Assembly (NCBI RefSeq): GCF_003334815.1
Contig: NZ_QOWO01000036.1
From: Escherichia coli
Lineage (GTDB): Bacteria > Pseudomonadota > Gammaproteobacteria > Enterobacterales > Enterobacteriaceae
Length of the DNA: 37,286 bases
Direction: 5' to 3' (one strand)
Within the stretch, counting starts at the first letter, position 1, and each line of letters opens with the position of its first letter. Both the position numbers and the translations under genes were made by a program. The notes beneath the pieces are model-generated. The model was given only the letters and a program-made list of their open reading frames with translations. It had not been told where the DNA came from and searched no databases. Of this stretch, positions 1-1,379 are shown piece after piece.

Positions 1-118
1 CTGCGGCGTTGTATTCATACCGCGTTTCACGGCCCTGTGCGTCTTTCACCGAGGTTAACCGGCCACGGTTGTCATAGTGGCGGTAAAGGCTGATACCTTC
101 CTCGCGGTATCGCCAGGT
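1..118 (-). pseudogene. rhsE: Rhs-family YD-repeat core fragment, continuing beyond the window start; fused out of frame to the vgrG fragment
   Basis: Minus-strand translation of 118..1 gives TWRYREEGISLYRHYDNRGRLTSVKDAQGRETRYEYNAA, a typical Rhs/YD-repeat sequence (YDxxGRL, RYEY). It is in a different frame from the upstream vgrG ORF. Symbol assigned from synteny with yncG/yncH only. Confidence 0.5.
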
Positions 119-1379
119 TGCCAAAGCCGGTGCCTGCCCACGCCTGTGCCACACGGATCCAGCATGAACTGTCCTGGTTTGACGGGTTATAGCGGTCCCA
201 GTTAAATTTCACCCGCACGCGGCCATGTTCATCACAGAAGATTTCCTCGCCTGCCGGTCCCGTCACGACGGCGCTCTGCGGGCCGTCGACCAGCGGTTTC
301 AGCAACGGCTGTGGTCGCCATGTTCTGTCTGCCGGGATCACCGCAAAATGGTTCTCCAGCGCCGTCCCCGCTCCCTGCCGTCCTGGCACCGCCTGTGGCT
401 GTTCGCCGTGCAGTTCACTTGCCACCACCTGCCATTCCCGGTTCAGGTTCGCCTGCGGATGCCCCGTCAGCACAATTCGTCGTCCCGGCCATATCTCCGG
501 CGAGCGACTCATTCCCCGCGCGGTTTCTGCATTGTTTCGCCAGCCGTCCATCTGCCAGCGGGCAAAGTTCTGCCCGTGGGCACCCTTGAAACGTCCGGGG
601 TAGTCATACACTTCATACTGCGTGCGCTGGTAGTCCTGGTGCTGGCCTTCCTGTTCAAAACGTCCGGCCCAGCCGGGGCGTTTAAAGGTGTAGTCTTTGG
701 TCACCACGGAAGAAGGGCGGATTTGTGCGCTGTAGCGGAACTGGCTGATGCAGAGGGTGCTCACCTCGGTACGGGTGTTCGGGTTCCATGGGATTTCAAA
801 AGATTCGGGCAGATGGCGGACTGTGTCGCACAGCACCAGGCTCTGGTCGGTACTTTTGTAAGCATGCTCCTCATAAAAGAAGATGCCTTCCTCCGCCGCC
901 ATCCGGCACAGGAAATCGTAATCAGTCTCACCGTACTGGACACAAAACTCACGGGAAGGATGCGGCTCGCTGAACAGCGGACTCCATTCGGTCACCCCGT
1001 TTTCCTGCAACATCGTGCCGAGGATGCTTTTGATGTCCTCGTTCTGGAAGATACGGAAGTTCTGGCGCAGACCGGCACGCCACAGCGGCGGGTGCACCTT
1101 CATGCTGTACAGCATCTGGTTTTTGTCGTTCTCCCCGAGTTCAAACCAGGTCACCACGCCTTTCACCCGGCGCTGTACTTCATCGCCCTGCCATATCGTC
1201 AGGTAGGCCATTTTGTCCAGCACCTGCGCAAATTCAAGGGAGAGAAACTGCTGGCTGACCAGGGAGAGATCGAGGGAAAAGAGCGAAGAGAGTGACTGGT
1301 TCAGATGAAAGGAAACCACCGCAAAAGCATCCGGCGGCAGGCCGTCCACTTCCAGTGTGAAACGTAATCCGGTTGACAT
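72..1379 (-). pseudogene. VgrG (type VI secretion spike) N-terminal region, truncated at 435 aa where it joins Rhs sequence
   Basis: ATG at 1379 (plus-strand cat 1377-1379) preceded by GGAGG; protein starts MSTGLRFTLEVDGLPPDAF, a canonical VgrG N-terminus. Homology ends after ...GFGNLAIPR and the ORF stops 9 codons later (TGA 72-74), whereas full-length VgrG is much longer. Confidence 0.6.

What the first reader, a model, noticed from the sequence alone, without database searches (positions are those of the whole stretch)
1..1379. VgrG N-terminus fused out of frame to an Rhs YD-repeat core
A canonical VgrG start (MSTGLRFTLEVDGL...) runs for about 425 residues, loses homology after ...NLAIPR near position 100-120 and stops at 72-74. 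A different minus-strand frame through 118..1 encodes unmistakable Rhs sequence (YRHYDNRGRLTSVKDAQGRETRYEY). This looks like a recombination scar joining a type VI secretion spike gene to an Rhs toxin core.
Basis: partly seen in the sequence, partly recalled or inferred. Interest (0 to 1): 0.45.

Follow-up and report, generated by a model that had tools for sequence, protein, structure and literature searches.

The report
Deletion scar joining vgrG and rhs
This is an ordinary dead-gene remnant: in one E. coli lineage a 2.6-kb deletion removed the back half of a secretion-spike gene (vgrG) and the front 40% of the toxin gene next to it (rhs), joining the leftovers out of frame.

Summary
On the minus strand, window 1379-101 encodes VgrG residues 1-426. 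At an 8-bp microhomology (ACCGCGAG, window 108-101) the sequence switches to Rhs core nt 1703 onward, in another reading frame. The VgrG frame reads 9 junk codons and stops at 72-74.

The locus is the E. coli yncG-yncH-vgrG-rhs-ydcD site, where K-12 carries its rhsE pseudogene. E. coli strain 720632 has intact vgrG (702 aa) and rhs (1407 aa) here. It matches the window and its parent contig at 100% on both sides (3079/3079 and 569/569 nt), apart from one 2,606-bp gap. So this is a simple deletion between two adjacent, co-oriented genes, not a join of distant elements.

It cuts VgrG inside its OB-fold and removes the needle. It also removes the Rhs start codon, the DUF6531 domain and the first 568 residues.

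The exact junction is absent from 5,426 complete E. coli genomes. It occurs on 2-3 draft contigs from NCBI and Logan. I mapped nine other, different deletion alleles at this locus, including K-12's.

Verdict: a real, rare, non-functional deletion allele at a locus already known to decay. Interest is low.

The parts
101..1379 (-). vgrG remnant: codons 1-426 plus 1 nt of a 702-codon vgrG. It keeps the gp27-like hub and the first part of the gp5-like OB-fold.
   Evidence: TIGR03361 positions 1-420/513, E=1e-138. 100% identical to intact vgrG of strain 720632 up to window 101. Intact VgrG domains are Phage_GPD 29-327, Phage_base_V 384-450 and Gp5_trimer_C 467-576.
101..108 (-). Deletion junction: the 8-bp microhomology ACCGCGAG, present once in vgrG (nt 1272-1279) and once in rhs (nt 1703-1710) of the intact locus.
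   Evidence: Three-way comparison of window, intact vgrG and intact rhs. Overlapping BLAST segments against 1303, REL606 and 720632.
72..100 (-). Frameshifted tail of the vgrG ORF: 9 codons (GRYQPLPPL, the first beginning at 101) read from rhs DNA in the wrong frame, then the stop codon at 72-74.
   Evidence: Translation and ORF list.
1..108 (-). rhs remnant: Rhs core nt 1703-1810 (residues about 569-603 of 1407, YD repeats). It runs off the window and continues at least 462 bp on the parent contig. It has no start codon of its own.
   Evidence: Translation. Parent contig L008 extends it, and it matches RHS_core positions 573-761/1261. 569/569 nt identical to rhs of strain 720632. In the Rhs frame the nearest upstream stop is at 209-211, with only GTG/TTG candidates and no Shine-Dalgarno sequence.
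72..1379 (-). The ORF as a gene caller sees it: 435 aa, deposited as CAM9366931.1.
2199..3104 (-). Synteny anchors yncH (2199-2411) and yncG (2487-3104), which identify the locus.
   Evidence: ORFs. Annotation of colinear regions in 1303, K-12, REL606 and 720632.

Best explanation
A strain-specific 2,606-bp deletion lies inside the chromosomal vgrG-rhs module between yncH and ydcD, the site where K-12 carries its rhsE pseudogene.

**How it arose (inferred from the junction).** The ancestor carried intact vgrG (702 aa), a 66-bp spacer and rhs (1407 aa), as strain 720632 still does. Slippage or illegitimate recombination between two direct copies of ACCGCGAG removed everything between them. One copy is at vgrG nt 1272-1279 and the other at rhs nt 1703-1710.

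**What was lost (shown).** The deletion removed VgrG residues 427-702: the rest of the OB-fold, the beta-helical needle and the C-terminus. It also removed the spacer and Rhs residues 1-568: the start codon, a weak N-terminal PAAR-like motif, the DUF6531 domain and the first YD repeats.

**Consequence.** The deletion length is not a multiple of 3, so the vgrG frame runs 9 codons into rhs and stops. The remaining rhs has no usable start. Neither a spike nor a deliverable toxin can be made (inferred from the domains lost). The locus is a pseudogene pair.

**Inferred only.** The remaining rhs core, the C-terminal toxin domain and the ydcD gene probably lie just left of the window, as in relatives. 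The decay is probably neutral, because T6SS machinery appears to be missing in this lineage.
For: - Strain 720632 has the intact locus and matches the window allele at 100% on both sides of a single 2,606-bp gap, with an 8-bp overlap. REL606 gives the same gap size.
- Domain truncations are documented.
- The window is colinear with E. coli 1303 over 37.1 kb at 99.96% identity up to the junction.
- The intact arrangement is common. 2,629 of 5,426 genomes cover at least 80% of a 3.2-kb probe spanning the deleted region; this may include paralogous loci.
- Nine other deletion alleles at the same locus have different breakpoints. Seven have 2-30 bp of junction overlap and two (K-12, MIN11) have short filler instead.
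- vgrG and rhs share 417 8-mer position pairs, about 3 times the uniform expectation, so there is ample substrate for such deletions.
- The exact 435-aa product is recorded from NCBI and Logan, on 2-3 contigs. The parent contig carries 570 bp of rhs beyond the junction.
- The junction-search method works. The 1303-type junction was found contiguously in up to 27 genomes.
Against: - The exact junction is in none of 5,426 complete E. coli genomes and in no metagenome contig.
- It is known only from short-read draft contigs that end in repeats: the Rhs core at one end and IS150 at the other. What lies left of the junction in this strain is therefore unseen beyond 570 bp.
- The data cannot tell whether the deletion arose in one step from an intact allele, or as a second 923-bp deletion within the 1303-type in-frame fusion. 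Both copies of the 8-mer exist there too.
- Neutral decay after T6SS loss is not demonstrated. REL606 lacks the aspV T6SS island yet keeps the module intact.
Confidence: 0.92

Rival explanations
1. Assembly artefact: a draft assembler wrongly joined vgrG reads to a repeated Rhs core, so the junction does not exist in the cell.
For: The source is a short-read draft contig bounded by repeats at both ends. Rhs cores occur about 4 times per genome. The junction is absent from all complete genomes and from metagenome contigs.
Against: - The overlap is only 8 bp, far below any assembler k-mer.
- 570 bp of rhs follow the junction on the contig.
- The same protein is recorded from both NCBI and Logan sources.
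- Both flanks are 100% identical to the same-locus genes of strain 720632.
- Finished genomes show nine analogous real deletions at this locus.
Confidence: 0.04
2. Two-step origin: the allele descends from the in-frame VgrG::Rhs fusion allele of the E. coli 1303 type, through a second 923-bp deletion that destroyed the fused ORF.
For: The window differs from 1303 by 1 mismatch in the 3.1 kb upstream, and by 13 mismatches and 1 gap over 37.1 kb. Its deletion encloses the 1303 junction, and both ACCGCGAG copies are present in 1303. The top-scoring hits to the vgrG side are mostly 1303-type strains.
Against: An intact allele with 100% identical flanks exists in strain 720632, so one step suffices. 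The distal 25 kb is equally close to many strains with other alleles, including N18-04097, which is intact. The end state is the same either way.
Confidence: 0.3
3. Functional product: either the 435-aa protein is a working short VgrG-like protein, or a +1 ribosomal frameshift yields a VgrG-Rhs chimeric effector.
For: The promoter region, the start codon and the whole gp27-like hub domain are intact. In-frame VgrG::Rhs ORFs exist in other strains.
Against: - The cut falls inside the OB-fold (residue 426 of the 384-450 domain), and the trimerising needle is gone.
- The tail is 9 junk residues.
- The allele is very rare and its length is not conserved. The 90% identity cluster holds truncated or partial VgrG sequences of many lengths.
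- No slippery or frameshift signal was looked for or is known here.
- The Rhs part lacks its N-terminal 568 residues, so a closed shell is unlikely to form. That last point is inference from Rhs structures (for example PMC8765631, PMC8636562) recalled from memory; I listed these papers but did not read them.
Confidence: 0.02

Closest known systems
E. coli K-12 rhsE pseudogene (b1456) at the yncH-ydcD locus
   Same: Same chromosomal locus, same kind of event (internal deletion leaving a 5'-truncated rhs upstream of ydcD), and annotated as a pseudogene.
   Different: The K-12 deletion is larger (about 4.47 kb). It starts 68 bp upstream of the vgrG start codon, so no vgrG remains, and it ends at rhs nt 2209 with 18 nt of filler. 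The window keeps 1,279 nt of vgrG and breaks at rhs nt 1703 with an 8-bp microhomology.
Intact vgrG-rhs-ydcD module of E. coli strains 720632, N18-04097 and B REL606 (a T6SS spike plus Rhs polymorphic toxin pair)
   Same: Orthologous and syntenic. Strain 720632 is 100% identical on both sides of the junction.
   Different: The window lacks 2,606 bp: VgrG residues 427-702, the 66-bp spacer and Rhs residues 1-568. It is out of frame.
In-frame VgrG::Rhs fusion ORFs of E. coli 1303 (1571 aa, WP_071889253.1) and strain 26561 (1754 aa, WP_107328603.1)
   Same: Same locus, and the same mechanism: a deletion between vgrG near nt 1363-1365 and rhs with short microhomology.
   Different: Their deletions (1683 and 1134 bp) are multiples of 3, so one long ORF survives and PGAP annotates it as an RHS element core protein. 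The window's deletion is not, so both genes are broken.
Specialised ('evolved') VgrG proteins with C-terminal effector domains
   Same: A VgrG N-terminus is followed by toxin-family sequence.
   Different: Those keep the full gp27/gp5 spike and carry an in-frame effector. Here the spike is truncated and the downstream sequence is out of frame. (The description of evolved VgrGs is from general knowledge of the family, not tested here.)

Membership tests
VgrG/TssI spike protein (TIGR03361; Pfam PF05954 + PF04717 + gp5 C-terminal needle) | gp27-like hub domain (Phage_GPD) | tested here: met
   Residues 7-426 match TIGR03361 positions 1-420. PF05954 is recorded for the product.
VgrG/TssI spike protein (TIGR03361; Pfam PF05954 + PF04717 + gp5 C-terminal needle) | Complete gp5-like OB-fold domain | tested here: not met
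   In the intact orthologue the OB domain spans residues 384-450. The window product leaves VgrG sequence after residue 426.
VgrG/TssI spike protein (TIGR03361; Pfam PF05954 + PF04717 + gp5 C-terminal needle) | Beta-helical trimerising needle and C-terminal region | tested here: not met
   Gp5_trimer_C 467-576 and the rest up to residue 702 of the intact protein lie inside the deleted 2,606 bp.
RHS element core protein (NF041261) | YD repeats of the core | tested here: met
   RHS_core positions 573-761, E=9e-117, and three matches to the YD_repeat_2x model (TIGR01643), in the 189 aa available.
RHS element core protein (NF041261) | Own start codon and N-terminal region (DUF6531), with a full-length score above the curated cut-off of 2000 bits | tested here: not met
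   Rhs nt 1-1702 are deleted. The deleted part holds DUF6531 at residues 46-123. The fragment scores 391 bits. There is no credible start in the Rhs frame.
RHS element core protein (NF041261) | Rhs-associated core motif, C-terminal toxin domain and downstream immunity-type gene | not testable with these tools
   These lie beyond the end of the window and of the parent contig. In relative 1303 they are present: TIGR03696, a DUF6973 C-terminal domain and ydcD.
Deletion pseudogene (relic) of the yncG-pptA rhs locus, as in K-12 rhsE | Same syntenic position, and colinear with an intact orthologous locus except for one gap that breaks the reading frames | tested here: met
   Synteny with yncG and yncH. 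Single 2,606-bp gap against strain 720632 with 100% identical flanks. Frame shift and stop codon. The locus is described as vestigial in many strains (PMC2935791).
Specialised VgrG-effector fusion | Effector domain in frame after a complete VgrG spike | tested here: not met
   The Rhs frame is +1 relative to vgrG, there is a stop after 9 codons, and the spike is truncated.

The most novel reading that the evidence does not exclude
The many independent deletions at this locus might not be neutral decay. In my non-random sample, six of the ten alleles break vgrG within nt 1222-1608, and five of those within nt 1222-1365. Five of the ten deletions are multiples of 3. Two of these leave long in-frame VgrG(N-terminal)::Rhs ORFs that PGAP annotates as intact proteins, and one of them is present in up to 27 complete genomes. 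This could reflect a fragile site, or selection for disarmed or re-purposed VgrG-Rhs chimeras that keep the Rhs C-terminal toxin and ydcD. The window allele would then be a knocked-out descendant of such a chimera.
Probability: 0.05. Interest if true: 0.35.

Novelty: already known. Interest (0 to 1): 0.1.

Why it matters
It matters little biologically. It is one more decay allele of an orphan vgrG-rhs module at a locus long known to be pseudogenised in K-12 and other E. coli.

Its practical value is for annotation. The 435-aa ORF deposited as a VgrG protein should be flagged as a pseudogene, as should the promoterless rhs fragment. The junction could also serve as a lineage marker.

The wider pattern is mildly interesting for studying how polymorphic-toxin loci erode. 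At least ten independent deletions occur at this one locus, eight of them with 2-30 bp of junction overlap.

Tried and rejected
- **Junction search, complete genomes.** No contiguous hit among 5,426 genomes. A positive control with the 1303 junction worked.
- **Junction search, metagenome contigs.** The exact 41-mer gave 0 hits.
- **Wang, Zhao & Hill 1998 (PMC107404).** This is the paper that I recall introduced the vgr names for genes upstream of rhs. It is not held. Statements about it are from memory and are not used as evidence.
- **First composite 'intact' reference.** My first attempt was mis-joined at a 30-bp internal repeat. I rebuilt it and then replaced it with real intact loci.
- **T6SS loss as the explanation.** I looked for a link between loss of the aspV T6SS island and this particular deletion. 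Strain 1303 (deleted allele) has only a relic island. REL606 (intact allele) has none either. So this cannot distinguish the alleles, and I kept it only as general background. Other T6SS loci were not examined.
- **One-step versus two-step origin.** The data do not resolve it (see rival explanations).
- **PAAR domain at the Rhs N-terminus.** Only a weak Pfam hit (E=0.14), so I do not claim it.
- **Technical note.** Loci fetched several at a time were not copied to the Python sandbox, so some were re-fetched.

Full report
**What is in the window.** On the minus strand an ORF starts at the ATG at 1379 (MSTGLRFTLEVDGL...) and ends with a stop codon at 72-74, giving 435 aa. An upstream in-frame ATG at 1415 would give 447 aa. 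Residues 7-426 match the NCBIfam VgrG/TssI model TIGR03361 over model positions 1-420 of 513 (E=1e-138), and TIGR01646 'vgr_GE'. A second minus-strand frame through 118..1 reads ...REEGISLYRHYDNRGRLTSVKDAQGRETRYEYNAA.

**Which locus this is.** The genes to the right are yncH (2199-2411), yncG (2487-3104), ansP, yncE and pqqU. The whole window is colinear with E. coli 1303 at 99.96% identity over 37.1 kb, up to the junction. This is the yncG-pptA rhs locus, 'locus 6' of Jackson et al. 2009. Those authors infer it to be ancestral in E. coli and vestigial in many strains (PMC2935791). It is where K-12 carries the rhsE pseudogene b1456 followed by ydcD. In intact form the locus reads yncH, vgrG, a 66-bp spacer, rhs (1407 aa), ydcD. 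This is seen in E. coli B REL606, N18-04097 and strain 720632. vgrG is 702 aa in 720632 and N18-04097, and 708 aa in REL606.

**The junction.**
- Against E. coli 1303, REL606 and 720632, the window splits into two colinear blocks that overlap by 8 bp.
- The three sequences at the junction are:
  - intact vgrG: ...ggcgatACCGCGAGtgggtcagg...
  - intact rhs: ...ggcggttcACCGCGAGgaaggtatc...
  - window: ...ggcgatACCGCGAGgaaggtatc...
- vgrG-derived DNA therefore ends at window 101 and rhs-derived DNA starts at window 108.
- The decisive comparison is with strain 720632. It has both genes intact and is 100% identical to the window allele on both sides (3079/3079 nt and 569/569 nt). The only difference is one 2,606-bp gap.
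- The gap runs from vgrG nt 1280 to rhs nt 1710 if the retained repeat copy is assigned to vgrG.
- In the intact locus vgrG and rhs happen to be in the same frame. 2,606 leaves a remainder of 2 on division by 3. So the vgrG frame runs into rhs in the wrong register, adds GRYQPLPPL, and stops.

**Is the junction real?**
- The exact junction is absent from all 5,426 complete RefSeq E. coli genomes and from the metagenome contig collection.
- The exact 435-aa protein is on record as CAM9366931.1, from NCBI and Logan sources, on 2-3 contigs.
- One such contig is GCA_965212685.1 CBDBYT010000044.1 (37,791 bp). It is 100% identical to the window over the 11,379 bp of overlap fetched. It extends 462 bp further left, all uninterrupted Rhs YD-repeat core matching RHS_core positions 573-761.
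- The far end of the window (37210-37286) is an IS150 end. The contig is thus a short-read contig bounded by repeats at both ends.
- An 8-bp overlap is far below any assembler k-mer, and 570 bp of rhs follow the junction. Finished genomes also show analogous deletions at the same locus.
- I therefore rate an assembly artefact at about 4%.

**Consequences for the proteins.**
- The intact 702-aa VgrG carries Phage_GPD at 29-327, the OB-fold Phage_base_V at 384-450 and Gp5_trimer_C at 467-576.
- The cut at residue 426 lies inside the OB-fold and removes the whole needle.
- The deleted part of Rhs (residues 1-568) holds the start codon, a very weak PAAR-like match (E=0.14, not claimed), DUF6531 at 46-123, and several YD repeats.
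- In the Rhs frame the nearest upstream stop is at window 209-211. Only GTG or TTG candidate starts follow it, none with a Shine-Dalgarno sequence.
- Neither a spike nor a deliverable Rhs toxin can be made. This is inferred from the domains lost.
- In relatives the downstream part encodes the Rhs-associated core motif, a DUF6973 C-terminal tip and YdcD. For this strain that region is unseen.

**Context: a locus that decays repeatedly.** I mapped ten alleles on REL606. Each has different breakpoints.

| Allele | Deleted (bp) | Junction or location |
|---|---|---|
| window | 2606 | 8-bp overlap, vgrG to rhs |
| 1303 | 1683 | overlap GTACC; in-frame 1571-aa ORF |
| 26561 | 1134 | 2-bp overlap; in-frame 1754-aa ORF |
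| 52F4 | 2034 | 7-bp overlap |
| ABW_A32 | 2524 | 3-bp overlap |
| AST19 | 680 | within vgrG; 12-bp overlap |
| 19SZHZ869Rt | 604 | within rhs; 30-bp repeat |
| MIN11 | 1368 | within rhs; 4 nt filler |
| H1 | 849 | spacer to rhs; 2-bp overlap |
| K-12 | about 4468 | removes the vgrG start; 18 nt filler |

- vgrG and rhs share 417 8-mer position pairs, about three times the uniform expectation. Substrates for microhomology-mediated deletion are plentiful.
- About half of the complete genomes (2,629 of 5,426) cover at least 80% of a 3.2-kb probe across the deleted region. This may include paralogous loci.
- The 1303-type junction is in at most 27 genomes.

**Origin and cause.**
- The window's deletion encloses the 1303 junction, and 1303 is nearly identical in the flanks. 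A second 923-bp deletion within a 1303-type fusion is therefore possible.
- Because strain 720632 provides a 100% identical intact haplotype, a single step is sufficient. The data do not decide between the two.
- The aspV-linked T6SS island is a relic in 1303: hcp, a VasL-domain gene, and a TssM C-terminal fragment abutting a truncated rhs. It is absent in REL606, which keeps the module intact.
- The module is thus probably orphaned in this group and decaying neutrally. That is an inference, and other T6SS loci were not checked.

**Comparison with what is known, and verdict.** This is the same kind of object as the K-12 rhsE pseudogene, with a different and rarer breakpoint pair. It fails the membership tests for a functional VgrG (incomplete OB-fold, no needle). 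It fails those for a full RHS core protein (no N-terminus, 391 bits against a 2000-bit cut-off). It is not a specialised VgrG-effector fusion, because it is out of frame. It is real but ordinary, so novelty is 'already known' and interest is about 0.1.

Noticed in passing
window 37210-37286: The last 77 bp of the window are the terminal sequence of IS150. They replace the hokB-proximal sequence found at this position in E. coli 1303. Together with the Rhs core at the other end, this shows the window comes from a short-read contig bounded by repeats.
   Followed up: yes
L001 7822-12537 (E. coli 1303); L013 5022-10286 (strain 26561): Two different deletions at the same locus are multiples of 3. 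They create long in-frame VgrG(N-terminal)::Rhs ORFs of 1571 and 1754 aa, which PGAP annotates as intact 'RHS element core protein'. The 1303-type junction occurs in up to 27 complete genomes, mostly pig and cattle isolates among those listed.
   Followed up: partly
REL606 vgrG nt 1222-1608 (L009 6304-6690): Six of the ten mapped alleles break vgrG within nt 1222-1608, and five within nt 1222-1365. The 1303 and 26561 alleles share a left breakpoint within 2 nt (in GTACC) but have different right breakpoints. The sample was chosen from hits to the window's own vgrG part, so the clustering may be ascertainment bias.
   Followed up: partly
L016 16875-23382 (E. coli 1303, aspV island): The aspV-linked T6SS island of strain 1303 is itself a relic. 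It has hcp, a VasL-domain gene and a TssM (IcmF) C-terminal fragment abutting an N-terminally truncated rhs, which is another deletion scar ending in an rhs gene. REL606 lacks the island altogether (L023).
   Followed up: partly
L008 11272-11841 (rhs nt 1703-2272): The 570 bp of rhs core after the junction are 100% identical (569/569 nt aligned) to strains 720632 and ETEC H10407. They are only 93-95% identical to the same-locus rhs of REL606, AST19 and N18-04097, although the vgrG side is about 99-100% identical to all of them. So two rhs-core haplotypes (a mosaic patch) segregate at this locus.
   Followed up: partly
window about 24485-26126 (from L010 11695-13336): By colinearity with strain 1303, the window also holds an IS200/IS605 tnpA pseudogene next to an insQ (TnpB-family) gene. 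It also holds the small toxin genes hicAB and ortT. All are ordinary K-12-type features.
   Followed up: no
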